DNA of 64,000 bases. Source: a virus (taxonomy: Duplodnaviria; Heunggongvirae; Uroviricota; Caudoviricetes). The notes beneath the pieces are model-generated. The model was not told where the DNA came from and searched no databases. It saw only the letters and a program-made list of their open reading frames with translations. The stretch lies in the IMG/VR virus record IMGVR_UViG_3300037466_001997, positions 1 to 64,000 of that record; one strand, 5' to 3'. Made by a program: the position numbers and the translations under genes. This document shows positions 425-62,800 of this stretch, piece after piece; position 1 is the stretch's first letter; each line of letters begins with the position of its first letter.

Positions 425-1051
425 TTAGTCAACGATTTCGTAGTGCTTATCGAGCGTGTAGTTCTTCAAGTTCAACTGGACATGGCCGATGCCATGTGCC
501 CAGAAGACATTGTGCTTCTTGCGACCACGGCTTTCCCAGTCAACCTTGGTGAAGGTATCGGCCTTGCCGTGCTTGCCAAAGCCCAAAGCTTCCTTGAACT
601 TGATCTTGGTCCCGGCGACGATCTTCGGTCCCTTGGTCTTCGCCTTGTCAAGCAGGCAGTTTTCCCGCCACTTCTTGGCATTTTCAGCCGCCTGTCCACC
701 ACCAACAACCGGCGAGAGCATGGCGATCAGCTTGGCAGGCGCATCGAAGTAGTACGGCAGAGCCGACTCATCCATGTCCTTCCACATGAATTCACCCTTG
801 CTGGTCTTGGTGAGAATGACCGTACCAAACGTAACAGCGCCGTCAGCGTCCGGCTGAAAAACATCAGCCATGGGCTTGGCATTCTTGTACTTCTGTTTGA
901 CGGCGGCATAGACCGTGGTTCCACGCTTGGTCGCATAGACCACTTCGGACTTGACATTCTCGTTTTCGAATTCCCAGTCCTTCAAGACATAAGCCTTGGG
1001 ATCAGCAGGCTTGTGGTAAATTCCAGTCCAACCCATCAACGTGTTCTCCAA
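425..1051 (-). CDS. hypothetical protein; ATG at 1036 with GGAGAA RBS is the likelier start than the TTG at 1051
   Basis: 208-aa ORF with protein-like composition. Conserved promoter immediately upstream. Confidence 0.6.
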   Translation of the reverse strand: MENTLMGWTGIYHKPADPKAYVLKDWEFENENVKSEVVYATKRGTTVYAAVKQKYKNAKPMADVFQPDADGAVTFGTVILTKTSKGEFMWKDMDESALPYYFDAPAKLIAMLSPVVGGGQAAENAKKWRENCLLDKAKTKGPKIVAGTKIKFKEALGFGKHGKADTFTKVDWESRGRKKHNVFWAHGIGHVQLNLKNYTLDKHYEIVD

Positions 1052-1062
1052 TTTCTGATTTC

Positions 1063-1091
1063 TATATAATCAGAATATTCGAGAATGTCAA
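1063..1091 (-). promoter_or_regulatory. sigma70-like promoter, TTGACA-17-TATATA
   Basis: Minus strand reads TTGACATTCTCGAATATTCTGATTATATA. Member of the recurring cassette. Confidence 0.5.
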
Positions 1092-1290: not shown

Positions 1291-2082
1291 TCAATTGACA
1301 GCACAATGAAAATTTCCGGCATCCGTCTTGCACACGTCCGGAAGGTTATCAACAAGCCATTTATCGATCAATGCGTGGTCAACAAGCTGACTTGTTCCAT
1401 CATAGAACAAAATCTTTTTGCCGCCGATGACGGCGGTATTCAGGGTCATCACGACAGGCCGCTTGTCGATATATCCAACGGTTTCCATCAGCCCGACATT
1501 GTTCGATTCCCAACTGATTTGGCGACCTTCCTTGCTGTAATGCCACTTTTCCCAGAGCATAAAGCGCTCATTGCTGGTCGCCTCGACCATATATTCCACA
1601 TCTTTCAGGAAAGCGACCATCTGTTCATCGGTTCGCTTCAAAGACGGTTCCTGCTTGGGCGGCTTTCTGTTTTTGGAAGGCCCTTTGCGATATTTGGCAT
1701 CGATCTTGCCGAAATATACCAAGCACCGATGGAATTCACCATCTTTGTATATGTCAACATTGTCGTCCAGATAGAAAGCGTTGATGTCGGGTTCATCCTC
1801 CGGAAGCCACGCCAGAACTTCGGCCACAGAAGGCTTGAACAATCCATAATAGGCGCACGGAAAATCGACGTGGAACACCCGGATATGTTCAAATTTGGCT
1901 TCGGGAATAGGGGCACCATAAAAACTTGGTTCCCAGAGCATCGATTGTTTTCGAGGATGTACCGGATCGAACTTCCGCAATTGACCATTCTTCATGATCA
2001 GCGGTGTGATCTTCGGAATCAGGCTCATTAGCCGATCTTCGGAAATTTTTGTGGCAGTTCCCTTGCCTTCAATCCAGTTCAT
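1291..2082 (-). CDS. hypothetical protein
   Basis: 263-aa ORF with AGAGG-type RBS. No recognisable motifs. Confidence 0.55.
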   Translation of the reverse strand: MNWIEGKGTATKISEDRLMSLIPKITPLIMKNGQLRKFDPVHPRKQSMLWEPSFYGAPIPEAKFEHIRVFHVDFPCAYYGLFKPSVAEVLAWLPEDEPDINAFYLDDNVDIYKDGEFHRCLVYFGKIDAKYRKGPSKNRKPPKQEPSLKRTDEQMVAFLKDVEYMVEATSNERFMLWEKWHYSKEGRQISWESNNVGLMETVGYIDKRPVVMTLNTAVIGGKKILFYDGTSQLVDHALIDKWLVDNLPDVCKTDAGNFHCAVN

Positions 2083-2146
2083 GCGAACCTCTATGCGATT
2101 CTAACAAAATGGGGAGACAGTCAACCTATCTCCCCTGTGCCGGGTT

Positions 2147-2320
2147 GTGTTTCAGGCTAGCCTGTTACATCAGCTAATCAAAACCATTTACAAACATGGG
2201 GCAAACGCCTTTCACCGTGCGGTATTCGACCGCTTCAAATCAAAAATCTCTTGCGTCGGGTTTTCGGAACGTTTCAGGCAGTGCCTGTTACGTCAGCTAA
2301 GTGAAACCATTTACGAACAT
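2147..2320. repeat. two ~50-bp imperfect direct repeats (2147-2196 and 2270-2320), each with a CAGGC..GCCTG palindrome
   Basis: gtttcaggctagcctgttacatcagctaatcaaaaccatttacaaacat versus gtttcaggcagtgcctgttacgtcagctaagtgaaaccatttacgaacat. Confidence 0.6.
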
Positions 2321-2428
2321 TTCCGTACCTCTTTAGAAGAATTTTTAGGTCAATTTTTCTTTAAGGCGCTAAACTCGACGGGAATGATCTTCGCTACATG
2401 GCCGTTCTCTCTTAACTCGCTGTTGTGG

Positions 2429-2529
2429 AAGGGTGACTAAAAGGTTTCAAACACTTCTTTCCCAAGGTGCCCACCGGCAAATGGATTTGGTTGCCGCCAA
2501 ACTTGAAACCTTTTAGTCACCCTTCCCTT
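2429..2529. repeat. perfect 24-bp inverted repeat ggaagggtgactaaaaggtttcaa around a 53-nt loop
   Basis: 2429-2452 is the exact reverse complement of 2506-2529. Confidence 0.7.
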
Positions 2530-2660
2530 TCCTAGTCAAAGACAGGCGATAATTGGCGGTCATAGCCGACTGGCTGTTCACCATTATTCGCTGCTCGCAC
2601 CGGTCGTCACCGTCTGGCTGTTCAGTGCTTCGCTCTTTCTGTCTCCTTCCTACATTTACG

Positions 2661-2688
2661 AATATATACACATTCTAGAGGATGTCAA
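2661..2688 (-). promoter_or_regulatory. sigma70-like promoter cassette copy firing leftward into the 2100-2650 noncoding region
   Basis: tacatttacgaatatatacacattctagaggatgtcaa; minus strand TTGACA-16-TATATT. Confidence 0.5.
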
Positions 2689-4380: not shown

Positions 4381-6219
4381 ATGGCCTCTTTCCGAAAATT
4401 TCTTACAGAAGCTTCATTCAAAGAAACCGATATGCCGGAAATCATCAAGAAGGTTTCCAGTATCGTATCCAAACGCCTTGGTCAAGAACTTTTTCCATGG
4501 AATAAGAACGGTTTACAAGAGCTACAGGCTGACGGCAAAACCTACAAGTGCTACCTGTTTTTCCTGAAATCCACCAAGGCTGTCCGCTTCAACACCATCA
4601 ACGGAACCTTCGATTCTATAGAAGTTTGGAAGAAATATCGAATCAGCCCATCGAACCTTCTACCAAAATCAGATTTCACCATCCGCCTCGATGGAATGAA
4701 TATCATGAAAGTTATAGATTCTGTCGTGGACCTTATTGACAAACCACAGGAGGGAACCCATAAAGTACCTGTGAATGAAGAACTTTTGATGGAGTCAAGA
4801 GCGGCGGACGAAGCGGCAAGAATGGGTTTAGACAATCTTGGTTACGGTCGCTATGGTCGCCGTGGTCCAGATGGTGAAGAACACGTAACCCATAAGGTCG
4901 ATAAGGTTCATGACCGCCTAGTGGAATTTGAGCCTGTGTCACAGATAGAGCGCAAGCGTCATATTAAAGACCCTCATGAATGGCACCGCATGGCCATTCA
5001 GACCTTTGGCGATCATAAAAATCTTGCTCGCCTGTCATGGTCTGATGTGGAAGTGATCGCTGCCAAGCATGGTGTGTCGATTCCGGGTTGGGTTCGTGCT
5101 TCTGGCACGGGCAAGGGCAAGAACAAAACGTTCACGTCCATCCCTTCGGCACACTTGAAGCCAGCGCAATCGGTGAATGATGCTGCCAAGGCCAAGGGAA
5201 CCGATTATTTCATCAAGGTTTCTCCCCGTGATCCTGTGACCAACAAATTTTCGTCGGTCAAGGATGACGAAGAAGGCTTGCGCATCCTCGCCACGATGAA
5301 AGCGCATCTGGAATCGCCATCACGTGATGTGATGGAAGACGAAATGCTTGATCCGAATACCAAGTTCGGACGCATGTCGGACCTTATCAATCTGGTGGTG
5401 AAGGGCGTTTCGCCTTCGCTGTTCATTTATGGCGGTCCCGGCATCGGTAAGTCGTTCGTCACCAACAAGACGTTGAAAGACGCCGGGTTGAAAAAGAACA
5501 AAGATTATTACGTCATCAAGGGTAAGATCACCCCGATTGCGCTGTACAATACGCTGTACACGCACCGTAACGATAATACCATGCTGGTATTCGATGATGC
5601 TGACTCCGTGTTCAGAAATGAAGATGGTGCCAACATGTTGAAAGCCGCTCTGGACTCGTATGAAGAACGTGAAATTTCGTGGTCTTCACGTAACACTGTC
5701 AATGTGGACAAGTGGACCATGGAAAAGCGTGAAAAGTACGAAAACCAGATCGATACCCGCTTGGCTTCGATTGGTGATGATGTGCCAGACGAAGAAGAAG
5801 ACGATGATGTCAAGGATGACGATTCAGACGAAGATTCTGGCGGCAAGAGAAAGAAAAAGAATAAGGAAAAAGAGCTACCTACCAAGTTGCCGGGCAAGTT
5901 CCTGTTCAATGGTAAGGTCATCTTTATTTCCAACCTTGCCAGAGAAGATGTTGAAGACGCTATTCTAGATCGTTCATATAAGATAAATATGGACTTGACG
6001 GCGCAACAGCGCTTCAAGCGCATGGAATCGCTTCTTGATGACATCGTTCCGGAAGTTCAGGATAAGGAATTGAAGGTTCGTGTTCTGAATGCGATCAAGG
6101 CCCACTTCAAGGCTGGCACGTTCGGTAACTCACTGCCTTCGATGCGTATGTTCGAATCGGGTATCAAGATTGCCAACTCTGGTATGCCTAATTGGACCGA
6201 GCTTCTTGAGTACGTCTAA
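4381..6219 (+). CDS. AAA+ ATPase with large N-terminal domain of unknown function and acidic/lysine-rich insert
   Basis: Walker A GGPGIGKSF, Walker B VFDDADSV, AILDRSYKI sensor-like. Only long plus-strand gene in this region. Confidence 0.7.
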   Translation: MASFRKFLTEASFKETDMPEIIKKVSSIVSKRLGQELFPWNKNGLQELQADGKTYKCYLFFLKSTKAVRFNTINGTFDSIEVWKKYRISPSNLLPKSDFTIRLDGMNIMKVIDSVVDLIDKPQEGTHKVPVNEELLMESRAADEAARMGLDNLGYGRYGRRGPDGEEHVTHKVDKVHDRLVEFEPVSQIERKRHIKDPHEWHRMAIQTFGDHKNLARLSWSDVEVIAAKHGVSIPGWVRASGTGKGKNKTFTSIPSAHLKPAQSVNDAAKAKGTDYFIKVSPRDPVTNKFSSVKDDEEGLRILATMKAHLESPSRDVMEDEMLDPNTKFGRMSDLINLVVKGVSPSLFIYGGPGIGKSFVTNKTLKDAGLKKNKDYYVIKGKITPIALYNTLYTHRNDNTMLVFDDADSVFRNEDGANMLKAALDSYEEREISWSSRNTVNVDKWTMEKREKYENQIDTRLASIGDDVPDEEEDDDVKDDDSDEDSGGKRKKKNKEKELPTKLPGKFLFNGKVIFISNLAREDVEDAILDRSYKINMDLTAQQRFKRMESLLDDIVPEVQDKELKVRVLNAIKAHFKAGTFGNSLPSMRMFESGIKIANSGMPNWTELLEYV

Positions 6220-7320: not shown

Positions 7321-7488
7321 ATCTTCCCTCCGTTTCAAACCTTTTTCCGCCAACTTGAACCCACCTTCGATTTCTTTCAGGCGATTCGTTGACAAGGCAG
7401 AGTAGGTTTCCCACAGTTTCAGCCACTTCCATGGCTCTGGGTCGCTGTATTCCATCAAGCGATGGATTATGGCGTTTCTATCTACCAT
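7303..7488 (-). CDS. hypothetical protein, 61 aa
   Basis: Sits directly downstream of promoter 7495-7522. Confidence 0.45.
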   Translation of the reverse strand: MVDRNAIIHRLMEYSDPEPWKWLKLWETYSALSTNRLKEIEGGFKLAEKGLKRREDANPKG

Positions 7489-7494
7489 AACCCC

Positions 7495-7522
7495 AATATA
7501 ACGAAAATGTAGAGAATGTCAA
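7495..7522 (-). promoter_or_regulatory. sigma70-like promoter TTGACA-16-TATATT
   Basis: aatataacgaaaatgtagagaatgtcaa. Confidence 0.55.
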
Positions 7523-9504: not shown

Positions 9505-9918
9505 TCAGCCGATCTTGCGAACGGCTTCCGGACGCTGCACAGGCTTGGTGGCGGCATCCTGCATCATCTGCATATCTGCCGTCATCTTGGCCATGCTGGT
9601 TTCCAGCGTTCCGATACGCCCAAAGGCATCGTCCAGCCGCTGCATCAACGCCTGATACGCTTCCTGTGTCAGTTTGGGAGCCTTCACCTTGGTAGAATAG
9701 TTGCCGAAAATCTGGCGGCGATTGTATGCCACCGTACCTTCGTTCATCTTGAATTCGGCGGCGATCTTGGCGTCATTCCATCCGGCTTTGTAGTCCGCCG
9801 TGTGGTTTTCCGCATTGATGTTCATCACCGATTCGAGACGATTTGCCAACTTGTGGCGTTCACGCATCGTCAGACGATTGATGGTTTTTTCTGCCTTTGG
9901 CTTGGTAGCTGTTGCCAT
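9505..9918 (-). CDS. hypothetical protein
   Basis: 137-aa ORF under promoter 9964-9993. Confidence 0.55.
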   Translation of the reverse strand: MATATKPKAEKTINRLTMRERHKLANRLESVMNINAENHTADYKAGWNDAKIAAEFKMNEGTVAYNRRQIFGNYSTKVKAPKLTQEAYQALMQRLDDAFGRIGTLETSMAKMTADMQMMQDAATKPVQRPEAVRKIG

Positions 9919-9963
9919 GTTCTCATGTTCTCCGGTGTCTGGAAGGTTGGTATTTACAATTTC

Positions 9964-9993
9964 CGAATATAATCAATAAATTCGGTATGTCAA
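9964..9993 (-). promoter_or_regulatory. sigma70-like promoter TTGACA-16-TATATT (cassette copy)
   Basis: ccgaatataatcaataaattcggtatgtcaa. Confidence 0.55.
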
Positions 9994-9994
9994 T

Positions 9995-10022
9995 AGAAAA
10001 AGGCCGGGAGTGAACCCGGCCA
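9995..10022 (-). terminator. rho-independent terminator GGCCGGG-TTCACT-CCCGGCC plus TTTTT
   Basis: Directly after the stop of the 10035..11000 gene. Confidence 0.6.
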
Positions 10023-13531: not shown

Positions 13532-13574
13532 GTCCTAGCTCCGGTTCCCGAACCATACCCCTTTCCATATAGAT

Positions 13575-13602
13575 CATATAGGCTAACTTATTGAAATGTC
13601 AA
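13575..13602 (-). promoter_or_regulatory. sigma70-like promoter TTGACA-16-TATATG
   Basis: catataggctaacttattgaaatgtcaa. Confidence 0.5.
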
Positions 13603-13604
13603 TA

Positions 13605-13633
13605 GTAAAAGAAAAAGGGGCACTAGGCCCCTT
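13605..13633 (-). terminator. rho-independent terminator
   Basis: AGGGGCACTAGGCCCCT followed by TTTTTCTTTT on minus strand. Confidence 0.5.
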
Positions 13634-13650: not shown

Positions 13651-13911
13651 TTAGGCCATTCCGATTGCCGCCTTATAAAGGTCGAGGATGCTTTCTTCCT
13701 CTTGGCGTTCAGCCTGATCTTTCTTGCGCAGACGAATGATCGTTCGAATGGCCTTGGTGTCAAACCCGGTTCCCTTGGCCTCGGCGTAAACGTCCTTAAT
13801 GTCCTCTGCAATCGTAGTCTTTTCTTCTTCCAAGCGCTCGATACGTTCGATGAGCGCCTTAAGCTGGCCAGCAGCTACGGTCTGGCTGGTTTCTGTAGCG
13901 GTATCTGTCAA
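13651..13911 (-). CDS. gapR: GapR-like nucleoid-associated protein (DUF2312/UPF0335)
   Basis: [49 protein letters not shown] is near-identical in pattern to Caulobacter GapR. TTG start after GAGGAA RBS. Confidence 0.8.
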
Positions 13912-14146: not shown

Positions 14147-14764
14147 CTATGTTCTATTTTTAATTTGTTCAATAGCGGAATGAAGTGGACTACTCTTGCC
14201 AATGATATCCCAATGATCAAGATTGGCAGTGCGCCACGATTTAAATTTGTTGTTGGCGCTCAAACCATCGGTAATTCCTCTACCCATGGCACGGATAGAG
14301 TTTTCAGGTGAAATGCCACCAACACCAGTTCCCATTCCCGAGAAACAGATTGAAACGATACCTTGCCACACAGCCTCACGGATTGCGGCACGTGTCGCTA
14401 GATAGACATTAGAGGCATCCGGCAAACGCATTGGAACACGCATGGTTGGTGCTACAACTAGATAGGGAATTGTTTTGTGGGTTGATTCCACGACCAATGC
14501 ATTCCCCACCAGCAATTCATTGAATTCCGTACATGCTGCGATTCCGTCCTGTACAATGTTTTGGATGTTTGGCATGTTTTCGGCAAAGTGATAATCAATA
14601 CCACCATCCATGAAGCCGAAGCTGTTGGCCGGGCTAACAACGGCATCAACCGGCGTATCCAAGGGAGAACCGATCCCTATATCAACTTCGGCTTTAAGGA
14701 AATCTTCGTTTGTTGCCGCTCTATCAACCAATGCCTGATTGCGATCACGAAAATAAATTTTCAT
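14147..14764 (-). CDS. macro domain protein (ADP-ribose binding/processing)
   Basis: VVSPANSFGFMDGGID and CFSGMGTGVGGISPE match the macrodomain NAAN..GGGVD and G-I-Y-G signature regions. Confidence 0.7.
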   Translation of the reverse strand: MKIYFRDRNQALVDRAATNEDFLKAEVDIGIGSPLDTPVDAVVSPANSFGFMDGGIDYHFAENMPNIQNIVQDGIAACTEFNELLVGNALVVESTHKTIPYLVVAPTMRVPMRLPDASNVYLATRAAIREAVWQGIVSICFSGMGTGVGGISPENSIRAMGRGITDGLSANNKFKSWRTANLDHWDIIGKSSPLHSAIEQIKNRT

Positions 14765-15553: not shown

Positions 15554-15791
15554 CACTTTTCCATCTTTCCTTCCATGCTTCCTCATCAATCCGCTGTGAA
15601 ATCAAAAGGGCTTCCACTGCGGCTTGTGCGCATTCTTTTTCATAGTCAGTGTTAGGGAAAATTTTCCCCGCTCTATAGCATGTTTCGACTCGATCAGTGG
15701 CGATATCGAAACATCGCTTGCGTTCATCGGCAACACCTTTGTCATATGCGCTTTGTGTCAATTTAACTAAATCAGACTCTTTTTCAGTCAT
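15534..15791 (-). CDS. hypothetical protein, 85 aa
   Basis: ORF. Confidence 0.5.
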   Translation of the reverse strand: MTEKESDLVKLTQSAYDKGVADERKRCFDIATDRVETCYRAGKIFPNTDYEKECAQAAVEALLISQRIDEEAWKERWKSDENYFL

Positions 15792-16258
15792 GCGAACATC
15801 CTAATTTCATGGCGTTCTGCCATTATAATTTTTCCGAGTTTATTCTTGCCAACACCATTGCAGACTCCCCAATAGGTGTCGCCCCATGTGTTGCCTTCAA
15901 TCAATTCGGCATCGTCGGTTGCCAGAAGCTTTTCCCGCATATCGGGAGCTTTGTATTTTATCTTTGTGAGACGTGCCATAACAGGGTCTCTGATTATGTC
16001 CCAGTTTCGACGAAGCTCAATCGTCTGGCCCCACGCTTTAACCTCTGATGGTTTAGCGTGTAGAAACGGAACATCGCCCCTTTTGAACGTCTTCACCGTC
16101 ATGTATTTGACTAGATGCAGCGTGACTTCGGCATTTGGCAGTTTATAGAACTGGTAGCCATGCTCCACCGTTGGCCAGATGACTTCACCATCTGGTACGG
16201 GCGAATACCAGAAATTGGATAGCCAGCGATATTCGCCGGAAAAACTATCAATCTTCAT
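15788..16258 (-). CDS. NADAR (YbiA/DUF1768) domain protein
   Basis: FSGEYRWLSNF...VEHGYQ...GDTYWGVCNGVGKNKLGKIIM matches NADAR family hallmarks. Confidence 0.75.
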   Translation of the reverse strand: MKIDSFSGEYRWLSNFWYSPVPDGEVIWPTVEHGYQFYKLPNAEVTLHLVKYMTVKTFKRGDVPFLHAKPSEVKAWGQTIELRRNWDIIRDPVMARLTKIKYKAPDMREKLLATDDAELIEGNTWGDTYWGVCNGVGKNKLGKIIMAERHEIRMFA

Positions 16259-18764: not shown

Positions 18765-19333
18765 TTAGTTCTTGCCGTGTCCGTTGCCGCCAGCGTTGCC
18801 ACCAGCGTTGCCACCGTGCGATGGGCCGGGAGCGCCATCGTGGTTTCCACCAGCGTTTTCAGCGTTGTTGTGATCTTCCGAATGGCCCGGCGCATTCTGA
18901 TCACCATTGCCATAACCATTGTTGTTGTGGCCGGTATCTCCACCGGAGCCACCACCATTGTTGTGGCCGGTATCTCCACCGGAGCCACCACCATCACCAC
19001 CAGAGCCATCGCCGCCGCCATCGGAACCACCACCGCCGTCACCACCGCCAGAGTCGCCTCCACCAGAGCTTCCGCCACCGCCGCCAGTGTTTCCACCGCC
19101 ACCACCAGTGTTTCCACCGCCACCACCAGTGTTTCCACCGCCACCACCAGTGTTGCCACCGGAATGATCGGAAACAGAATGCGTGTTGTTAGCGCCGCAT
19201 TGGGTCCAGATTGTTGATTGTGTGGTATTGTATTCACAATGTCGGAATGGTGCCGCATGAGCGACCCCATAGCCGTTCGAAAGAAGGATCAGCACAGATG
19301 CACTGGCCCTTAGCGCTAGATATAGATTTTTCA
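18765..19333 (-). CDS. secreted glycine-rich tandem-repeat protein (signal peptide, then GGNTGGGGG repeats)
   Basis: MKNLYLALRASASVLILLSNGYGVAHA is a signal peptide. Four or more exact 18-nt tandem repeats encode NTGGGG. ATG at 19333 follows AAGGGG RBS; track TTG extension overlaps the promoter. Confidence 0.55.
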
Positions 19334-19372
19334 TCCAAAGCACCCCTTGTGCGTTGCCTAAGTTACCACTCA

Positions 19373-19400
19373 CATATAAGTGATTCCTACGGAAAGTCAA
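19373..19400 (-). promoter_or_regulatory. promoter TTGACT-16-TATATG
   Basis: catataagtgattcctacggaaagtcaa. Confidence 0.4.
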
Positions 19401-22634: not shown

Positions 22635-23690
22635 CTAGTATTTAGGCGTCGGGATCATGTTCTGAATTATACGCTCTGCCTGTGTTTGACGAACATCAAA
22701 ATCCGCATTTAGGATGCATTCGAAGTTCTTGCCGTATTCCTTTAACTTGCCGACAAGCTTGTCATAGAATTGCCAGCGAGTTTCTTCCACTTCCATAACA
22801 CGAAATCCATCCTGAATCCATGGTACAGATGGGGCTAGAACAATGTATTTGTCGATATGTTGTTCTTTTGCAACATCATAGAATTCCGAATTATCTTCAC
22901 CCGGAAACCAGATATCGGCATACATGGCAGTAATCAGCGCTTCCGTGTCCGAGACGATGATTGGAAAATTTGCGTTTTCCTTCGTCTGGTCAATCAGGAA
23001 TTGCTGTGTGCGCTGGATAATCCGGAAGTCTTCCCGGTCCAGTTCGTTCTTGCGATTCACAGACAGGATGCGACCGTATTCGGGGAGTGTGTCATAGAGC
23101 TTGGACAGCTTCTTGATCATGGTGGACTTGCCACAGGATTCCGGCCCGACAATCGCCACCGTCTGCACCAAGTCGTGCTTGGTGTATTCGGGCAGAGATT
23201 TGAACATGGAATAAAAATTATTTCGGACCATCGTGCCCGAAATCGACTTCATTTCCCTGTCCGGATCAACCGGAACCCAACGTGCGTGAAGCTCTTTGGC
23301 GATACGTTCACCGTAAAGATCGGATGTGAACACAATATCGATTTTTTCGAGCGTTGATGGCCCAAATTCATTGGTCAAAATTTCACGAGTGGAGGCAAGC
23401 CAAGCCTGCCAATATGATTCATCCGTGATTGTACCGTTTTCATCCTTGTCGGCGTGTTTGTCCAATTCCGGCTGTGGTAAAATGAACAGGGTACAAAATT
23501 CTTCCTGTTCGCCAATTGCCTTTTCAACCCATTCTTTTCTTTGTTCGAAAGAGAACGGATCATCTGGCGTTGTGCCAATCAGCACAATCAATTCATCGCA
23601 GTTTTTGGCGGCAACTTTAAGCAGAAGTTCATGCCCCTTATGCAGGGGCAAAAACTTTCCTAGCGTAAAACCAGTTCTATAATAATCCAC
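22635..23690 (-). CDS. nadR: NadR-like bifunctional NMN adenylyltransferase / ribosylnicotinamide kinase (no HTH domain)
   Basis: N-terminal GFTLGKFLPLHKGHELLL (HxGH nucleotidyltransferase); C-terminal VAIVGPESCGKSTM Walker A. Confidence 0.75.
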   Translation of the reverse strand: MDYYRTGFTLGKFLPLHKGHELLLKVAAKNCDELIVLIGTTPDDPFSFEQRKEWVEKAIGEQEEFCTLFILPQPELDKHADKDENGTITDESYWQAWLASTREILTNEFGPSTLEKIDIVFTSDLYGERIAKELHARWVPVDPDREMKSISGTMVRNNFYSMFKSLPEYTKHDLVQTVAIVGPESCGKSTMIKKLSKLYDTLPEYGRILSVNRKNELDREDFRIIQRTQQFLIDQTKENANFPIIVSDTEALITAMYADIWFPGEDNSEFYDVAKEQHIDKYIVLAPSVPWIQDGFRVMEVEETRWQFYDKLVGKLKEYGKNFECILNADFDVRQTQAERIIQNMIPTPKY

Positions 23691-23692
23691 AA

Positions 23693-24412
23693 TTACCGTC
23701 CGTAATGAATGGGTTCAGCTTTCCGCTGTCTATCGAGATACCAGAGGGTATAACCATAGACCACGTTACACAGGAACAAGGCGTACTGTGCGGCCCATAG
23801 GAAGAAGCCTGACTTGTAGTACACATAGACCGAAATCACGTTCACAGCGGCCCAGAATACCCAACTGATAGGCTTTTTCTGGTTACATAGATACTGTGCA
23901 ATGATTGACAGCATCAGAATGCCGACATCGAACGTTGTGTAGGAGGATTGGAAGTAATTGTACACCTGAACGATGATATACCACGATACAACACCAACAA
24001 TGGCCATCATGATATATTCGAATGGTTCAAGCGTTCGTGAAACTGGAAGATCGGTTCTGCCTTCGCCACCAAATTTCCAGTTATACCAACCCACGAATTG
24101 TGCCGGGATAAAGTATGCCCATTGCAGGGTCATTGAGGCTTTCAGATTGCCATGATAGGCGAGCGCACCAAGGAAGACAACGGCAACGATGCCGAGCGGC
24201 CAATTGGCGTTCTTCTGTCTCGATACGAGATACACACAGGCATAGTTCAGGACCACGCCAATGACTTCCACACCTAGCCAGAGTGGTGAGTCGGTATAGG
24301 CTTTTGCGAAATCCCACCAACCAAATTCTTGGCCGACGAAATAACTTGCGAATGTCAGCACTATACCGACAAGAAGACCCTCACAGGTATCGAGAAAAAA
24401 TTTCATTATCAA
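23693..24412 (-). CDS. pnuC: PnuC-like nicotinamide riboside transporter
   Basis: 239-aa multi-TM protein with Trp-rich helices immediately upstream of nadR (classic pnuC-nadR pairing). Confidence 0.6.
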   Translation of the reverse strand: MIMKFFLDTCEGLLVGIVLTFASYFVGQEFGWWDFAKAYTDSPLWLGVEVIGVVLNYACVYLVSRQKNANWPLGIVAVVFLGALAYHGNLKASMTLQWAYFIPAQFVGWYNWKFGGEGRTDLPVSRTLEPFEYIMMAIVGVVSWYIIVQVYNYFQSSYTTFDVGILMLSIIAQYLCNQKKPISWVFWAAVNVISVYVYYKSGFFLWAAQYALFLCNVVYGYTLWYLDRQRKAEPIHYGR

Positions 24413-26342: not shown

Positions 26343-27281
26343 TTACGAAAAAGTTGAAGTTTCTGTGTTTGCCGAAACTTCTGGTGCTGCGGCAGGAACA
26401 GTGATCTTCACAACCGGAACCATAGCAGTACCATCCCACTGTGTCAATACACCAGCGATGTGTCCTTCCACAGAAGGAACGGCAGATGCATCAACAGTTG
26501 TTTCATCAACAACTTCTGATGTGTGTGCTGGTGTGTAATCCACAGGTGTTACAGGAACAACCGGTGCTGGTGTTGGTTCAGCTACAGGCGCTGGCGCTTC
26601 CACAGGTGCTGGCGCATCGACCGGAGCCGGATCAGCAACTACAGGGGCGTCAACTGGTGCCGGTGCTGGTGCGTCAACCGGAGCTTCCACAGGGGCAGGG
26701 TCCGCAACTACCGGCGCATCAACTGGCGCAGGCGCATCAACTGGTGTTTCAGGTGCTGGCGCTGGTGCGTCAACAACTGGTGTTTCGACCGGTGCCGGTG
26801 TTTCTGGGGCAGGGTCTGCTACAGGCGCTGGTGCATCAACTGGTGCTGGTGCTGGTGCATCAACTGGGGCTGGTGTTTCTACCGGAGCCGGGTCAGCAAC
26901 TACAGGGGCAGGATCAGCAACTGGGGCAGGATCAGCGGCTGGCGCTGGTGTTTCTGCCGGTGCAGGATCAGCTACGGGTGCCGGGTCAGCGGCTGGCGCT
27001 GGTGTAGGGTCTACAGGTTCTGGGGCTGGCGCTGGTGCGTCTTCCACAGGTGTTGGTGCAGGCTCTGCCGGTGTTTCTACCGGTGCCGGTGCATCTTGTG
27101 CTGGCGCTGGTGCGTCTACCGGTGCTGGTGCATCGACAGGGGTTTCTACTGGTGCTGGTGCGTCAACTGGCGCAACAACTTCGTCAGCGAAGAATTTTTC
27201 AATATCTTCGACTACTTCTTTTTCGATTTCTTCGAATTTTTCAACGATATCATCGATGATTTCTTTTGGGTTCTTGGCCAA
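26343..27281 (-). CDS. Pro/Ala-rich tandem-repeat protein (DAPAPV/ETPAPV repeats) with ordered N- and C-terminal ends
   Basis: Over 200 aa of (D/E)(A/T)PAPV-type repeats; highly repetitive DNA. Confidence 0.5.
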   Translation of the reverse strand: MAKNPKEIIDDIVEKFEEIEKEVVEDIEKFFADEVVAPVDAPAPVETPVDAPAPVDAPAPAQDAPAPVETPAEPAPTPVEDAPAPAPEPVDPTPAPAADPAPVADPAPAETPAPAADPAPVADPAPVVADPAPVETPAPVDAPAPAPVDAPAPVADPAPETPAPVETPVVDAPAPAPETPVDAPAPVDAPVVADPAPVEAPVDAPAPAPVDAPVVADPAPVDAPAPVEAPAPVAEPTPAPVVPVTPVDYTPAHTSEVVDETTVDASAVPSVEGHIAGVLTQWDGTAMVPVVKITVPAAAPEVSANTETSTFS

Positions 27282-29295: not shown

Positions 29296-29544
29296 CTATA
29301 CCTGAACCTGAACTTCCCTATAACGAACAACACATTCCTGATAATCGTTCGTAGCGTCGTTGGGTATCCAACGTTCCTTCACATACTGATGTTCGTGAGC
29401 GACCAAAGCCCTATAGTTCAGTGCTTCTTCTCTGGTCGGAAATGGTTCGAATTTGTATTCATCCACTTCCTGTCCATACTGATCCACATTTATCCAACAT
29501 ACCCGCCATTCACAACGATACGTCTTAAAAGTGAAACCAGTCAT
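29296..29544 (-). CDS. hypothetical protein, 82 aa
   Basis: Sits under promoter 29569-29596. Confidence 0.5.
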   Translation of the reverse strand: MTGFTFKTYRCEWRVCWINVDQYGQEVDEYKFEPFPTREEALNYRALVAHEHQYVKERWIPNDATNDYQECVVRYREVQVQV

Positions 29545-29568
29545 CGGTCAAACTCCAATTACAAATCG

Positions 29569-29596
29569 AATATAATCGAAATCTAGAGAATGTCAA
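29569..29596 (-). promoter_or_regulatory. sigma70-like promoter TTGACA-16-TATATT (cassette copy)
   Basis: aaatcgaatataatcgaaatctagagaatgtcaa. Confidence 0.55.
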
Positions 29597-29597
29597 G

Positions 29598-29625
29598 CAG
29601 AAAAAAGGGAGCCGAAGCTCCCTTG
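29598..29625 (-). terminator. rho-independent terminator
   Basis: GGGAGCCGAAGCTCCC followed by TTTTTTCTG on minus strand. Confidence 0.55.
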
Positions 29626-36457: not shown

Positions 36458-36729
36458 TCTTGCAACATGTCATCATAAATGTTGTCGTCGGTGGCAACGA
36501 TCTTGTATTCGAGCTTCCGCATCTTGCCGTACTCGACATCGTAAAGGTCCAGTCCGTTCAGCGTGATCTTGACCTTGTTGATGCCGTTCTTGGCCTTGGG
36601 AAGCTGGAACGCCAGCCCATTGGGCAGACTGATGAAGTTCTTGGCACCCGTCATAGCGATGAACTTGTTTCCGCCAAGCTGTTGAAGGATGGTCAGTGCA
36701 ACGGGCGGGATCGGTTTCTGTGCGGCCAT
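36418..36729 (-). CDS. hypothetical protein, 103 aa
   Basis: Sits under promoter 36760-36788. Confidence 0.5.
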   Translation of the reverse strand: MAAQKPIPPVALTILQQLGGNKFIAMTGAKNFISLPNGLAFQLPKAKNGINKVKITLNGLDLYDVEYGKMRKLEYKIVATDDNIYDDMLQECFTAQTGLDTHL

Positions 36730-36759
36730 TTCCGGTTCCTCTCAATCTCTACATTTACG

Positions 36760-36788
36760 AATATAATCGAAATCTAGAGAATGTCAAC
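36760..36788 (-). promoter_or_regulatory. sigma70-like promoter TTGACA-17-TATATT (cassette copy, overlaps stop of the HD-domain gene)
   Basis: catttacgaatataatcgaaatctagagaatgtcaa. Confidence 0.55.
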
Positions 36789-37749: not shown

Positions 37750-37898
37750 GCCTGATACTTTTCCAGAAGATCAAGAGCCGGTAAAGGATGTTGCGCAAAT
37801 ATCTGGGCTTCATAGGGATTGGTGGCCTGCCCTTTGTTCCGGGCATGAATACCATCCGTGTAGACTTCCCAGAGCGCCGTTCCAATCTGATACTTCAT
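37695..37898 (-). CDS. hypothetical protein, 67 aa
   Basis: ORF. Confidence 0.45.
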   Translation of the reverse strand: MKYQIGTALWEVYTDGIHARNKGQATNPYEAQIFAQHPLPALDLLEKYQAWQDGWDKAEGKIAKVFD

Positions 37899-37923
37899 GT
37901 CTCAATCCCCTGATTACATTTCG

Positions 37924-37951
37924 AATATAATTGATTCCTACGATATGTCAA
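37924..37951 (-). promoter_or_regulatory. sigma70-like promoter TTGACA-16-TATATT
   Basis: gaatataattgattcctacgatatgtcaa. Confidence 0.55.
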
Positions 37952-37952
37952 G

Positions 37953-37984
37953 CAAAAAGAAAGGCGGGGATTTCTCCCCGCCCG
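37953..37984 (-). terminator. rho-independent terminator
   Basis: GGCGGGGATTTCTCCCCGCC followed by TTTCTTTTTG on minus strand. Confidence 0.55.
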
Positions 37985-40555: not shown

Positions 40556-40592
40556 CCCATCTTCGGCATGTTCTGCCTCCTATCTGGGTTCT

Positions 40593-40620
40593 ATATAATC
40601 TAATTATTCGAAAATGTCAA
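40593..40620 (-). promoter_or_regulatory. sigma70-like promoter TTGACA-16-TATATA
   Basis: tatataatctaattattcgaaaatgtcaa. Confidence 0.5.
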
Positions 40621-44671: not shown

Positions 44672-44709
44672 AGACAAAAATAAAGGGAGGGGCTAGATTC
44701 ACCCCTCCC
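44672..44709 (-). terminator. strong rho-independent terminator at the 3' end of the ORF-free transcript
   Basis: GGGAGGGG-TGAATCTAG-CCCCTCCC followed by TTTATTTTTG on minus strand. Confidence 0.6.
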
Positions 44710-46045
44710 GTGACAGTCTTTGATTGGATTATGGTTTGGGTGCTAGCCAAACTTTCCCAACGTATCCACTTCCTTTTGGGAAGTAACTGCTAAGACTTCT
44801 TTGTATTCGACATTTGCAACTTACTCGGCACATTCTTTTCTGAATGAACTAGCTAGGCTCACACTAGAACTTCCTGTACCAAACCAACGTACCTTGCGGG
44901 CTTGCTGGCACCAGATTACCTTTCGGTTCTGGCATTAAGTCCCTTCGTTGCAAACCGGAACGGTCTTTGCGTTTTTTGTGACATCGCAGGAATTGCACCT
45001 ACACTGTCAGCTCCTGAAAGCTGATGCCCTACTATTAGGCAAGATGAACCCACTAAGACGTGCCGTTCCAGTTGTTTCATTACCTTTTGGGTAACGAAAT
45101 GCAACACGCCTCTTGCTTTCGACTTGCGGTCTACTCACCGATTTTCAGGATTCTGTCCCTTTCGGTCCAGTGCCCTTCATTCTGGATATAGCTCTTGCCT
45201 GCCGGGCTTGAACCATATTCCTATACGTTGACATTCGCCCCTCTGTTAGTTGCATTGGCTGCATTGGATTTGCGGTCCAATTTAGGTGGCAATGCTTATC
45301 CACCATATCGCCCTTTCGGGGACGACAACCTCTAACATTAAGGACTAGCTCCGGTTCCACCGAAGCACCCTCGACAAGGGTTAGTCCGTACTTGCTTGGC
45401 TTCATCCATCTTGCGATGAACGGGGAGTCTTATGGGAAGAACATCCCTCTGCTACCGGTTGCCCGATGCAGTGCCCCAAGCGGCAATTCGTTAAACTGGC
45501 TACCGGGGTTGGATTCGATACCAACATACACCCTCTAAACGAGGGTGGCTTTAACTTAAGCTACCCGATAATAGAACTTTCAGGACAGGTGTCTTATCCG
45601 TTTGACGGGATTGTTAGACGACGATGTTTTTCGACGTGGACCGATTAGGGACGAACCTTTGTCTCTACCAGCATCTACTTATCGGATGGACATTTAAGCC
45701 TAGTTGTTCTTTTCAATGGGTTCCAACGCCACTGCTAGTTTACAACACTCATTTCCTGTTATCAGTTTGGGAAAGGAACTTGGTGAAGTTCATTACCGAA
45801 GCTGATTTTTGTACTCTACTCTTTTATATATCTCCTGTCAACACTTTTTTTCGTTTTCTTCGAACTTTTTCTAAGGAACTACCGAAAGAATTTCGAACTT
45901 CTTTCCCCCTGTTCCCCGCTCACTTCCGAACGCCAGAAATGAACTGTTCAAACGATACCTTTATGATCTATTATCGGTTCAAAAAGGTTGTCAAGCCTTT
46001 TCTTTGGGGATATAGACTGTGGTTGACCGCCACCGGTTCGTTGTT
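44710..46045 (-). ncRNA. candidate large (~1.3 kb) structured noncoding RNA with its own promoter and terminator
   Basis: No ORF of convincing quality in any frame over 1.35 kb in an otherwise gene-dense genome. Consensus promoter at 46050-46078 and terminator at 44672-44709 on the minus strand. Several GAAA-loop hairpins, e.g. ACC-GAAA-GGT. Confidence 0.45.
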
Positions 46046-46120: not shown

Positions 46121-46558
46121 CTAGGTCATCCGGCTTGCGGTATAGCAATCGATACCGGCTTCACGCATGACGGCGGCAAAAGCGTGGCAGTAGGCTTCCT
46201 TCTTCTGCATCGATTGCGAATTCTCCCGTGCGCTCATGTAGTGGCAACGCCGGTAGTCGTCGTAACGACCGTAGCCGTTTTCCTTCATCCAAGTAGCGAT
46301 ACCGCCACGGGAAGGACGAATCTCGACCCAAGCAAGACCGCAAACGCCATCCTCGACGTAATATGTGGGCCTCGAATAGTCGATTTCGTTGGAAAACAGA
46401 CCCTTTGCATCACCGACGATCATCGGAGTCGGGCGACATGCCGCAATCGCAGCCTGTCCAGCCGCATCGGCCTTGGCAAACAGAGCCTTGCACTCACGCT
46501 TGCCCATCGGCACAGCCTTGGCCCGTGCCTTCTTGCCGAACTTGTCCATATCAATCAT
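46121..46558 (-). CDS. hypothetical protein, 145 aa
   Basis: ORF. Confidence 0.5.
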   Translation of the reverse strand: MIDMDKFGKKARAKAVPMGKRECKALFAKADAAGQAAIAACRPTPMIVGDAKGLFSNEIDYSRPTYYVEDGVCGLAWVEIRPSRGGIATWMKENGYGRYDDYRRCHYMSARENSQSMQKKEAYCHAFAAVMREAGIDCYTASRMT

Positions 46559-46586
46559 TCCAGAACTCCCTTGTTCCTACTTTTCG

Positions 46587-46615
46587 AATATATGAAAAAT
46601 GTAGGATAATGTCAA
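46587..46615 (-). promoter_or_regulatory. sigma70-like promoter TTGACA-17-TATATT
   Basis: aatatatgaaaaatgtaggataatgtcaa. Confidence 0.5.
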
Positions 46616-61841: not shown

Positions 61842-61858
61842 TTCCTGATTACAAATCG

Positions 61859-61886
61859 AATATAATCAATCTGTAGGAAATGTCAA
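61859..61886 (-). promoter_or_regulatory. sigma70-like promoter TTGACA-16-TATATT (cassette copy)
   Basis: aaatcgaatataatcaatctgtaggaaatgtcaa. Confidence 0.55.
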
Positions 61887-62655: not shown

Positions 62656-62683
62656 TTGACTTTTCGTAAGGAATGAATATATT
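62656..62683 (+). promoter_or_regulatory. plus-strand sigma70-like promoter TTGACT-16-TATATT
   Basis: cctcttgacttttcgtaaggaatgaatatattcgg. Confidence 0.45.
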
Positions 62684-62689
62684 CGGGGT

Positions 62690-62800
62690 GACTGGACGGC
62701 AGACAAGGCCGTCCCCCGTGTTGGAGCGGGACACTCCAACCCCCTAGTCTTGGGAGGGGAGGCACCCAAGACACCGAGTCGAAGCGGTAATCTTCGACAA
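62690..62800 (+). ncRNA. candidate small RNA (~110 nt) with 3-4 consecutive hairpins
   Basis: Hairpins GGACGGC..GCCGTCC, GTTGGAG..CTCCAAC, GTCGAAG..CTTCGAC downstream of the plus-strand promoter. No ORF; convergent with the 62804..63238 gene. Confidence 0.3.

What the first reader, a model, noticed from the sequence alone, without database searches (positions are those of the whole stretch)
29569..29596. Highly conserved 35-40 nt promoter cassette repeated across the window
At least eight intergenic sites (for example 2661-2688, 9964-9993, 29569-29596, 36760-36788, 37924-37951, 61859-61886) share not just -35 TTGACA and -10 TATATT. They share a longer near-identical block: CGAATATAATCGAAATCTAGAGAATGTCAA on the plus strand, which reads TTGACATTCTCTAGATTTCGATTATATTCG on the minus strand. 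Conservation of the spacer and flanks suggests recognition by something beyond host sigma70. Candidates are a phage transcription factor or modified RNAP as with T4-type early promoters, or sites that drive recombination and mosaicism.
Basis: seen in the sequence. Interest (0 to 1): 0.55.

Follow-up and report, generated by a model that had tools for sequence, protein, structure and literature searches.

The report
Repeated early-promoter cassettes in jumbo phage
The repeated block is a family of strong, host-type (sigma-70-like) promoters that start small gene clusters in the tRNA-rich region of an uncultivated ~200-260 kb phage. It is real and conserved in related phages, but it is a known kind of thing, closest to the early-promoter and terminator-promoter cassettes of T4-type phages.

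Summary
TTGACA-N16-TATATT occurs 7 times, all on the minus strand, against 0 expected. An eighth copy has a 17-nt spacer, and about 5 looser relatives exist. The quoted 30-mer is exact at only two sites (29567-29596 and 36758-36787); the other core sites differ from it at 5-8 of 30 positions.

The core sites still share far more than the hexamers: 15.2 of 32 non-hexamer positions against 8.1±0.55 for random intergenic sets. Each of the 12 minus-strand sites points with the genes. Eleven lie 22-77 nt upstream of a start codon and one precedes a ~580-nt stretch with no ORF. Four directly follow a terminator hairpin. The flanking genes are not paralogues, so segmental duplication is excluded.

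Related metagenomic jumbo-phage contigs (57-86% protein identity) keep promoters at the same loci, with consensus TTGAC(A/T)-T-t-y-y-C-T-A…A-T-TATATT. A relative at 52% identity does not.

Site 29596 is a chimera of two other cassette types, and one variant sits at different loci in two genomes. Cassettes are therefore occasionally copied between loci.

Best reading: host-RNA-polymerase early promoters with a clade-specific extended consensus, resembling T4 early promoters and PeSL cassettes. A factor that reads the spacer is not excluded. This is a new member of a known kind, of modest interest.

The parts
29557..29596 (-). Cassette promoter, the flagged site: -35 TTGACA 29591-29596, 16-nt spacer TTCTCTAGATTTCGAT, -10 TATATT 29569-29574, then CGATTTGTAAT. 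Start codon of an 82-aa ORF at 29544.
   Evidence: A chimera: 30 of 30 identical to site 36787 on the -35 side, 17 of 17 identical to site 61886 from the -10 onward.
29605..29624 (-). Terminator hairpin (AAGGGAGC-TTCG-GCTCCCTT plus a T-run) ending 8 nt upstream of the -35 of cassette 29596.
36748..36787 (-). Cassette promoter, identical 30-mer to site 29596. Overlaps the 3' end of the HD-phosphohydrolase gene. Start codon of a 103-aa ORF at 36729.
   Evidence: Orthologues at L010:6901, L011:5415 and L015:4576.
37912..37951 (-). Cassette promoter (spacer TATCGTAGGAATCAAT). Start codon of a 67-aa ORF at 37898.
   Evidence: Orthologue at L010:5832.
37962..37983 (-). Terminator hairpin (GGGCGGGGA-GAAA-TCCCCGCCT plus a T-run) immediately upstream of cassette 37951.
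61847..61886 (-). Cassette promoter (spacer TTTCCTACAGATTGAT). Start codon of a 243-aa ORF at 61829.
   Evidence: Orthologues at L007:9944 and L009:6784 keep the hexamers and the downstream block; the spacer differs at 4-6 of 16 positions.
9954..9993 (-). Cassette promoter (spacer TACCGAATTTATTGAT). Start codon of a 137-aa ORF at 9918. Preceded by a terminator hairpin at 10002-10021.
   Evidence: Orthologues at L137:10997 and L138:11054.
7483..7522 (-). Cassette promoter (spacer TTCTCTACATTTTCGT; -10 followed by GG rather than CG). Lies 1 nt after the stop of the upstream gene.
2649..2688 (-). Cassette promoter (spacer TCCTCTAGAATGTGTA). It precedes about 580 nt with no ORF, possibly a non-coding RNA.
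   Evidence: The orthologues L137:16986 and L138:16350 keep the -35, the -10 and the box AATGTAGG, but have unrelated spacers.
46575..46615 (-). Cassette promoter with a 17-nt spacer (TTGACATTATCCTACATTTTTCATATATTCGAAAAGTAGG). Start codon of a 145-aa ORF at 46558.
   Evidence: The same variant (37 of 54 positions identical, as two exact runs of 16 nt each) sits at a different locus in relative L137:2606.
40580..40620 (-). Sub-class with a 17-nt spacer and -10 TATATA (TTGACATTTTCGAATAATTAGATTATATA). Start codon at 40569.
   Evidence: Orthologues at L010:2394 and L011:724.
1051..1091 (-). Sub-class with a 17-nt spacer and -10 TATATA (TTGACATTCTCGAATATTCTGATTATATA). Start codon at 1036.
   Evidence: Similar copies occur twice in L011 (3865 and 11567) and in L015 and L016.
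19361..19400 (-). Weaker family member (TTGACT, spacer TTCCGTAGGAATCACT, -10 TATATG).
   Evidence: family D15.
62656..62695 (+). The only plus-strand family member (TTGACT-N16-TATATTCG). It points into a hairpin-rich intergenic stretch.
   Evidence: Conserved in L007 at 9169 on the minus strand of that locus.
13563..13602 (-). Sigma-70-like promoter (TTGACA-N16-TATATG) after a terminator at 13615-13633. Its spacer is not of the family type; listed for contrast.
   Evidence: Its own spacer is conserved in the orthologues L137:7619 and L138:7230.

Best explanation
These are promoters used by the host RNA polymerase with its main sigma factor (sigma-70 type). They start short, rightly oriented transcription units of small genes in the accessory, tRNA-rich region of a large uncultivated phage, so they are most likely early promoters.

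Each unit reads as follows: an A- or T-rich tract, which in four cases is the T-tail of the preceding terminator; -35 TTGACA followed by T; a 16-nt (sometimes 17-nt) spacer that starts pyrimidine-rich with an almost invariant TA 22-23 nt upstream of the predicted start; A-T then -10 TATATT; CG; four or five A/T; G-T-A-purine at the predicted start; a ribosome-binding site; and a start codon about 18-40 nt after the predicted start.

I attribute the similarity beyond the hexamers to two causes. First, a clade-specific optimised consensus inherited vertically; parts of it fit known polymerase contacts, such as G two bases after the -10 and a pyrimidine-purine step at the start. Second, occasional copying or crossing-over between cassettes at different loci, which made the two identical 30-mers and the chimeric site at 29596.

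Shown: anatomy, statistics, conservation in relatives, chimerism. Inferred: that transcription starts here, that host polymerase is used, and that timing is early.
For: - Statistics: 7 exact TTGACA-N16-TATATT, all on the minus strand, against 0 expected. They are the three top-scoring promoter matches in 25-45 kb.
- Position: all 12 minus-strand sites lie at the 5' ends of minus-strand units. The -10 to start-codon distance is 22-49 nt for ten of them, 77 nt for 19400, and 2688 precedes 578 nt without an ORF. Four follow hairpin-plus-T-run terminators.
- Extended similarity: z = 12.8 over 32 non-hexamer positions.
- Not a duplication: no paralogy among flanking genes, and similarity is confined to about 40-50 nt.
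- Relatives: contigs L007/L010/L137 (70-86% protein identity), L009, L011, L015, L016 and L138 (57-67%) keep promoters at the same loci. Hexamers are nearly invariant, and T at -28, TA at -23/-22 and AT at -14/-13 are present in 14-18 of 18 sites.
- Copying: the chance that two independent family members share the 30-mer is about 5e-8. Site 29596 equals 36787 on the left (30/30) and 61886 on the right (17/17), while its own orthologue L010:12360 matches at only 15 of 32 non-hexamer positions. Published PeSL crossovers map between the -10 and the ATG and yield chimeric cassettes (PMC2839356).
- Precedent: T4 early promoters show consensus beyond the sigma-70 elements (PMC2988021).
Against: - No transcription start has been mapped; the phage is known only from metagenomes, so promoter activity, timing and the polymerase used are inferences.
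- The invariant TA and the pyrimidine run in the spacer have no established polymerase contact that I can cite.
- A 16-nt spacer is one shorter than the E. coli optimum, and there is no TGn extended -10.
- Only 4 of 13 sites have an adjacent terminator.
- Most gene indels between the window and L010 do not abut a cassette, so recombination at cassettes is at most occasional.
- The host is unknown.
Confidence: 0.68

Rival explanations
1. The extra conserved positions (TTYYCTA in the spacer, CG-W4-GTAR at the start) are the binding site of a sequence-specific factor acting at these promoters. This could be a phage repressor that shuts off early genes, an activator, or a phage-modified polymerase as with Alt in T4. 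On this reading the hexamers alone do not explain the cassette.
For: Some spacer positions persist across a clade in which synonymous sites are saturated: TA at -23/-22 in 17-18 of 18 sites and T at -28 in 16 of 18. A second promoter-like class in the same window (CTAAATA/TATAAATA before tRNAs) lacks these features, so promoter classes could be regulated differently. Alt stimulation of T4 early promoters depends on sequence outside the hexamers (PMC2988021).
Against: - Between orthologues the spacer changes at 4-7 of 16 positions, about the same as the 20-30% divergence of neighbouring DNA.
- L137:16986 and L138:16350 keep the hexamers at the 2688 locus with unrelated spacers.
- There is no consistent dyad or direct-repeat symmetry.
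- The spacer word TTYYCTASA hardly occurs away from TTGACA: 4 of 6 minus-strand copies are in cassettes.
- No sequence-specific DNA-binding protein was found among the 40 window proteins scanned; the only DNA binder is a GapR-like nucleoid protein. The regulator could still be encoded outside the window.
Confidence: 0.17
2. The cassettes are chiefly recombination linkers (PeSL-type). Their near-identity is kept by frequent exchange between copies, which shuffles small gene modules, and promoter activity is secondary to that role.
For: - Two exact 30-mers 7.2 kb apart, which cannot be explained by the family consensus alone (P about 5e-8).
- The chimeric site at 29596.
- The 82-aa ORF 29296-29544, directly behind that cassette, is absent from L010, where the next gene follows the promoter.
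- Variant TTGACATTATCCTACA…TATATTCGAAAAGTA lies at different loci in the window (46615) and in L137 (2606).
- The HD-phosphohydrolase gene lies on different sides of a promoter-led module in the window/L010/L014 versus L011/L015.
Against: - About ten other indels between the window and L010 do not abut a cassette.
- For three of the four window cassettes whose L007/L010 orthologue was scored, the orthologue is the best or near-best match, so evolution is mostly vertical.
- No module flanked by two cassettes in one genome and replaced by a single cassette in another was found.
- The exact homology is only about 30 nt.
Confidence: 0.1
3. The repeats are left over from a recent local duplication, or are chance matches in AT-rich intergenic DNA.
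For: Two copies are identical over 30 nt.
Against: Zero matches are expected by chance. Similarity stops within about 50 nt and the flanking genes share no detectable similarity. The sites are spread over 60 kb and conserved at the same loci in contigs from other samples.
Confidence: 0.01
4. The sites are read by a phage-encoded sigma factor or polymerase rather than by the host's main sigma factor.
For: The phage is large; some jumbo phages carry their own polymerases (own knowledge).
Against: The hexamers are the canonical sigma-70 consensus (TTGACA, and TATATT with A at position 2 and T at position 6) at 16-17 nt spacing. No polymerase or sigma gene was seen in the window or in the Pfam lists for the fetched loci.
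Confidence: 0.04

Closest known systems
PeSL (promoter-early stem-loop) cassettes of T4-type phages RB49/phi1, T4/PST and KVP40/nt-1 (PMC2839356, PMC4122927)
   Same: Short composite units repeated in regions full of small unknown genes. Each has an AT-rich tract, a stem-loop just upstream of a near-consensus sigma-70-like promoter, then a Shine-Dalgarno sequence and start codon. In RB49/phi1 the hexamers are TTGACA…TATAAT. Crossovers between the -10 and the ATG give chimeric cassettes, which is the pattern seen at 29596. The region also carries many tRNAs, as in KVP40/nt-1.
   Different: Only about a third of the sites here have the stem-loop. The spacer is 16 nt rather than 17. The link to indels is weak in the comparisons possible here. 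Membership of the phage in the T4-like group is not established: its best protein matches are to assorted jumbo phages of Caulobacter, Ralstonia, Salicola and Sinorhizobium at 40-58% identity. Mini-circles cannot be tested.
T4 early promoters (the 'uber' UP/-35/TGn/-10 promoters reviewed in PMC2988021)
   Same: Many copies of a very good sigma-70 promoter with additional consensus positions outside the hexamers. They drive small prereplicative genes and are thought to out-compete host promoters.
   Different: There is no TGn extended -10 here (G-A-T precedes the -10). The -10 is TATATT rather than TATAAT. No Alt-like ADP-ribosyltransferase was identified in the window.
Operator-type sites dispersed over phage genomes, such as P1 C1 operators and the mycobacteriophage L5/Bxb1 'stoperators' (own knowledge, not checked in the library)
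   Same: Asymmetric conserved sequences of 13-17 bp, repeated many times in one orientation relative to transcription, some overlapping promoters.
   Different: Those sites also occur away from promoters and bind a known repressor. Here the conserved spacer word is practically confined to the TTGACA context, and no repressor candidate was found.

Membership tests
Sigma-70-type (-35/-10 class) bacterial promoter | -35 hexamer close to TTGACA and -10 hexamer close to TATAAT, with A at position 2 and T at position 6 | tested here: met
   TTGACA and TATATT are exact at 8 sites, 11 of 12 matches to the consensus.
Sigma-70-type (-35/-10 class) bacterial promoter | Spacer of 16-18 nt between the hexamers | tested here: met
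   16 nt at 7 sites and 17 nt at 46615, 40620 and 1091.
Sigma-70-type (-35/-10 class) bacterial promoter | Located upstream of, and oriented with, a transcription unit | tested here: met
   All 12 minus-strand sites precede minus-strand units. Ten have the -10 22-49 nt before a start codon, 19400 has 77 nt, and 2688 precedes a 578-nt stretch with no ORF.
Sigma-70-type (-35/-10 class) bacterial promoter | Transcription start 6-9 nt downstream of the -10, made by host holoenzyme | not testable with these tools
   No RNA data are available. A pyrimidine-purine step (T-G) lies 7-8 nt after the -10.
T4-type early promoter | Consensus positions in addition to the -35 and -10 | tested here: met
   15.2 against 8.1 of 32 non-hexamer positions shared. 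Clade-wide consensus.
T4-type early promoter | TGn extended -10 element | tested here: not met
   Positions -15 to -13 read G/C-A-T. The scan tool reports 'TG before second hexamer: no' for the three cassettes in 25-45 kb.
T4-type early promoter | A/T-rich UP element upstream of the -35 | tested here: inconclusive
   A-runs or T-runs lie 5-15 nt upstream of the -35 at most sites, but four of them are terminator tails.
T4-type early promoter | The phage belongs to the T4-like group | tested here: inconclusive
   The window carries a DNA ligase and RNA ligases, and T4-late-like TATAAATA/CTAAATA motifs. But the best protein matches are 40-58% identical and go to diverse jumbo phages. No structural genes lie in the window.
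PeSL cassette | Stem-loop immediately upstream of the promoter | tested here: inconclusive
   Present at 37951, 29596, 9993 and 13602 in the window, and at L010:12360 and L010:5832. Absent at the other sites.
PeSL cassette | Many well-conserved copies among small unknown genes in variable regions | tested here: met
   13 sites in 64 kb; most neighbouring genes are under 150 aa with no family match.
PeSL cassette | Shine-Dalgarno sequence and start codon at the 3' end of the unit | tested here: met
PeSL cassette | Insertions, deletions or replacements between related genomes lie at the cassettes; chimeric cassettes occur | tested here: inconclusive
   For: the chimera at 29596, an ORF indel behind it, and one variant at different loci. 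Against: most indels are not adjacent to a cassette.
PeSL cassette | Excised mini-circles formed by recombination between cassettes | not testable with these tools
   Needs inverse PCR on infected cells.
Dispersed repressor operator ('stoperator'-like) | The conserved word also occurs outside promoters, in one orientation | tested here: not met
   TTYYCTASA: 4 of 6 minus-strand copies directly follow TTGACA, and there is 1 plus-strand copy.

The most novel reading that the evidence does not exclude
The spacer signature (T at -28, a pyrimidine run, then invariant TA at -23/-22) and the CG…GTAR start block are read by a factor specific to this phage clade or its host. This could be an injected or early phage protein, or an unusual feature of the host polymerase. 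It would mark a regulated promoter class distinct from the CTAAATA class before the tRNAs. That would be a spacer-reading control mechanism at otherwise canonical sigma-70 promoters.
Probability: 0.15. Interest if true: 0.6.

Novelty: new member of a known kind. Interest (0 to 1): 0.3.

Why it matters
The result gives a usable promoter model, and a first transcription-unit map, for a clade of uncultivated jumbo phages of roughly 200-260 kb. Their accessory region is otherwise almost all unknown genes.

It also extends the terminator-promoter cassette idea, known from cultured T4-type phages, to an environmental lineage. It supplies a concrete example of a chimeric cassette consistent with exchange between copies.

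Near-consensus sigma-70-type promoters with a defined extended consensus could be tested as portable strong promoters. None of this changes current understanding of phage transcription.

Tried and rejected
- **DNA pattern scans of IMG/VR** gave only single, mostly chance hits. One (L001) turned out to be a true relative of the L011 type.
- **Single-protein search for related loci** on viral contigs found nothing.
None encoded several relatives of window proteins, so the genome-wide distribution of cassettes could not be obtained.
- **Exact-protein look-ups for the window's own 196-kb contig** failed. Only a 1.8-kb Logan contig was returned.
- **Dyad symmetry or operator idea.** A position matrix scored the reverse strand highly. 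On inspection the arms (ACAT.TCG / CGA.ATGT) are inconsistent between sites, and TCTAGA is not part of a longer palindrome, so I dropped it.
- **Start-stop mini-ORF idea.** ATGTAA or ATGTAG at the predicted start is not consistent across sites (TTGTAA, AAGTAG), so I dropped it.
- **Opposite-strand promoter.** A TATAAT on the plus strand inside the cassette has no -35 at a usable distance, so it is not a divergent promoter.
- **CTAG avoidance or enrichment.** CTAG is at expectation in the window (228 observed, 240 expected).
- **Rfam search** of the ORF-free region behind cassette 2688 found nothing meaningful.
- **Family scans of 40 window proteins** found no sigma factor, sequence-specific transcription factor or ADP-ribosyltransferase.

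Full report
**What the window is.** The 64-kb window (46% G+C) is transcribed almost entirely from the minus strand. It carries 22 tRNA genes, all on the minus strand, and about 119 mostly small ORFs. It also holds a GOLLD RNA.

Recognisable genes are accessory or host-takeover types. They include two RNA ligases, a CCA-adding enzyme, a DNA ligase, a NadR-like enzyme and a PnuC transporter. There are also Macro and NADAR domain proteins, a GroES homologue, a Band-7 protein, HNH endonucleases and a GapR-like DNA-binding protein.

No deposited phage is similar at the DNA level. Protein matches are 40-58% identical and go to jumbo phages of Caulobacter, Sinorhizobium, Ralstonia and Salicola. Identical or related proteins sit on metagenomic contigs of 196, 241, 242 and 261-262 kb. 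The source is therefore an uncultivated jumbo phage.

**Checking the observation.** All six example coordinates hold TTGACA-N16-TATATT on the minus strand. The pattern occurs 7 times, always on the minus strand, with none in 100 shuffles. Site 46615 has a 17-nt spacer. Allowing one mismatch, or using a position matrix, adds sites at 19400, 13602, 40620 and 1091 on the minus strand and 62656 on the plus strand.

The quoted 30-mer is exact only at 29567-29596 and 36758-36787. The other core sites differ from it at 5-8 of 30 positions. So 'near-identical block at eight sites' is too strong.

The sites do share much more than the hexamers. Mean pairwise identity over 32 non-hexamer positions is 15.2 against 8.1±0.55 for random intergenic sets, and no set among 20,000 exceeded 10.6. 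The 16-nt spacer alone gives 8.9 against 4.1. The repeat finder picks out the same sites as the only dispersed repeat families apart from tRNAs and repeats internal to genes.

**Anatomy.** Read on the minus strand, a typical unit has these parts:
- an A-run or T-run upstream;
- TTGACA followed by T;
- a spacer beginning T-Y-Y-C-T-A-S-A and ending A-T;
- TATATT;
- CG, then four or five A/T, then G-T-A-purine;
- a purine-rich ribosome-binding site and ATG.

Eleven of the 12 minus-strand sites lie upstream of a called minus-strand start codon. The -10 to start-codon distance is 22-49 nt for ten of them and 77 nt for 19400. Predicted leaders are mostly 16-43 nt. Site 2688 is the exception and precedes about 580 nt with no ORF.

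Sites 37951, 29596, 9993 and 13602 directly follow a G+C-rich hairpin with a T-run. Others overlap the last codons of the upstream gene. The genes downstream of different cassettes are unrelated, and similarity between copies ends within about 50 nt. A segmental duplication is therefore excluded.

**Relatives.** I fetched syntenic stretches from seven related contigs:

| Loci | Source | Protein identity to window |
|---|---|---|
| L007, L010, L137 | one JGI lineage | 70-86% |
| L009 | NCBI metagenome assembly | ~85% |
| L015 | JGI | 67% |
| L011 | JGI | 63% |
| L016, L138 | one ENA sample | 57-59% |
| L014 | JGI, 39% G+C | 52% |

Gene order is largely collinear, with many small indels.

Promoters are present at the same loci:
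- 61886 = L007:9944 = L009:6784
- 36787 = L010:6901 = L011:5415 = L015:4576
- 37951 = L010:5832
- 29596 = L010:12360
- 40620 = L010:2394 = L011:724
- 9993 = L137:10997 = L138:11054
- 2688 = L137:16986 = L138:16350
- 13602 = L137:7619 = L138:7230

Over 18 sites with a 16-nt spacer from the different genomes, the hexamers are nearly invariant. Counts for the other conserved positions are: T at -28, 16 of 18; T at -23, 17 of 18; A at -22, 18 of 18; A at -14, 14 of 18; T at -13, 16 of 18. A sub-class with a 17-nt spacer (TTGACA-TTCTCCAATATTCTCAT-TATATA) recurs in L011, L015 and L016 and resembles window sites 1091 and 40620.

L014, the most distant relative, has either no promoter or a generic one (TTGACA…TATAAA) at these loci. 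The extended consensus is thus clade-specific.

Between orthologues the spacer changes at 4-7 of 16 positions. This is close to the 20-30% divergence of the surrounding DNA. At the 2688 locus the relatives keep the hexamers and the downstream box with unrelated spacers. Most spacer positions are therefore not individually essential.

**Evidence for copying between cassettes.** Given the family's position frequencies, two independent members would share the 30-mer with probability about 5e-8. The identical pair therefore reflects copying.

Site 29596 is a chimera. From -34 to -5 it equals 36787 (30 of 30). From the -10 onward it equals 61886 (TATATTCGATTTGTAAT, 17 of 17). Its positional orthologue L010:12360 matches only 15 of 32 non-hexamer positions. 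The first ORF behind 29596 (29296-29544) is absent from L010, where the next gene follows the promoter directly.

The variant TTGACATTATCCTACA…TATATTCGAAAAGTA stands before unrelated genes at different loci in the window (46615) and in L137 (2606).

This is what was described for PeSL cassettes of T4-type phages. There, crossovers between the -10 and the ATG produce chimeric cassettes and delete or insert small ORFs (PMC2839356; PMC4122927).

Against a dominant recombination role, most indels between the window and L010 do not touch a cassette. For most sites the orthologue is the closest or near-closest relative.

**Mechanism.** The hexamers and spacing are the canonical recognition elements of the main bacterial sigma factor. 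The position and orientation are right, and terminator-promoter-RBS units before small accessory genes are typical of phage early regions. I therefore read the cassettes as early promoters used by unmodified, or little modified, host polymerase.

Several extra conserved positions have ordinary explanations from established knowledge of sigma-70 promoters (my own knowledge, not tested here):
- G two bases after the -10 contacts sigma region 1.2 and stabilises open complexes.
- A pyrimidine-purine step is favoured at the start site.
- A-tracts upstream act as UP elements.

The invariant TA and the pyrimidine run in the spacer remain unexplained. They could tune DNA shape for the host polymerase or be read by a factor. 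I found no dyad, no stand-alone copies of the spacer word and no candidate regulator in the window. A factor encoded elsewhere in the genome cannot be excluded.

**Comparison with known systems, and novelty.** The closest matches are T4 early promoters, for which extra consensus beyond the sigma-70 elements is documented (PMC2988021), and PeSL cassettes.

The differences are as follows. There is no TGn element. The spacer is 16 nt. Only about a third of the sites have the stem-loop. The link to indels is weak. The phage's membership in the T4-like group is unproven.

I file it as a new member of a known kind: repeated, strongly conserved early-promoter cassettes in a previously undescribed environmental jumbo-phage clade.

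**Verdict.** The feature is real, statistically solid and conserved in evolution, but functionally ordinary. The claim that something beyond sigma-70 must recognise the cassette is not supported by the evidence, though it is not excluded. Interest is 0.3.

Noticed in passing
window 44689-45112 (-), with an embedded tRNA-like match at 44977-45049: A GOLLD RNA (Rfam RF02032) scores 158.8 bits against a gathering score of 150, covering the full-length model. A terminator-like hairpin lies at 44685-44709.
   Followed up: no
window minus strand: 42807, 41749, 40197, 35746, 28756, 28366, 20072, 18684 (also 39473, 26314, 56905); plus strand 4339: A second promoter-like class, CTAAATA/TATAAATA. CTAAATA occurs 15 times on the minus strand and once on the plus strand, 16 in total against 5.8±2.1 expected. 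Eight copies lie 12-19 nt upstream of a tRNA 5' end, and several have TTGAC(A/T) about 17-18 nt upstream. The core equals the T4-type late promoter TATAAATA (own knowledge). A plus-strand TATAAATA sits about 35 nt before the only large plus-strand gene (4381-6219).
   Followed up: partly
window 2080-2650 (-); L137:16986-17547; L138:16350-17085: About 580 nt with no ORF lie behind cassette 2688, in the same position in two relatives. The stretch holds two copies of a roughly 50-nt box (ATGTTCGTAAATGGTTTCACTTAGCTGACGTAACAGGC…CCTGAAAC) that is also present in L137 and L138, and a long hairpin at about 2427-2526. This is probably a structured non-coding RNA. There is no Rfam family match.
   Followed up: partly
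window 62656-62800 (+): A cassette-type promoter on the opposite strand points into a hairpin-rich 110-nt intergenic stretch, convergent with the DUF7448 gene. It is conserved in L007, where a 76-aa ORF was called downstream. It may drive a small RNA or an antisense transcript.
   Followed up: partly
window 13651-13911 (-): A GapR-like DNA-binding protein (Pfam PF10073, E = 8e-35). GapR is a nucleoid-associated protein typical of Alphaproteobacteria (own knowledge), which hints at the host group.
   Followed up: no
window 14147-14764, 15788-16258, 22635-23651, 23693-24406 (all -): A set of genes related to NAD and ADP-ribose: a Macro domain protein, a NADAR domain protein, a NadR-like NMN adenylyltransferase/kinase and a PnuC NMN transporter. 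The L014 relative also carries NAD synthase. This may be a counter-defence or NAD-salvage module.
   Followed up: no
window 26510-27155 (in ORF 26343-27281) and 18778-19160 (in ORF 18765-19295): Two genes contain long, imperfect in-frame tandem repeats with periods in multiples of 3 (18, 21 and 24 nt). They encode low-complexity repeat proteins with no family match.
   Followed up: no
window 37951-36729 versus L011:3363-5778 and L015:2794-4926: The HD-phosphohydrolase gene lies after the promoter-led small-gene module in the window, L010 and L014, but before it in L011 and L015. This is a local module rearrangement, with promoters at two of the three junctions.
   Followed up: partly
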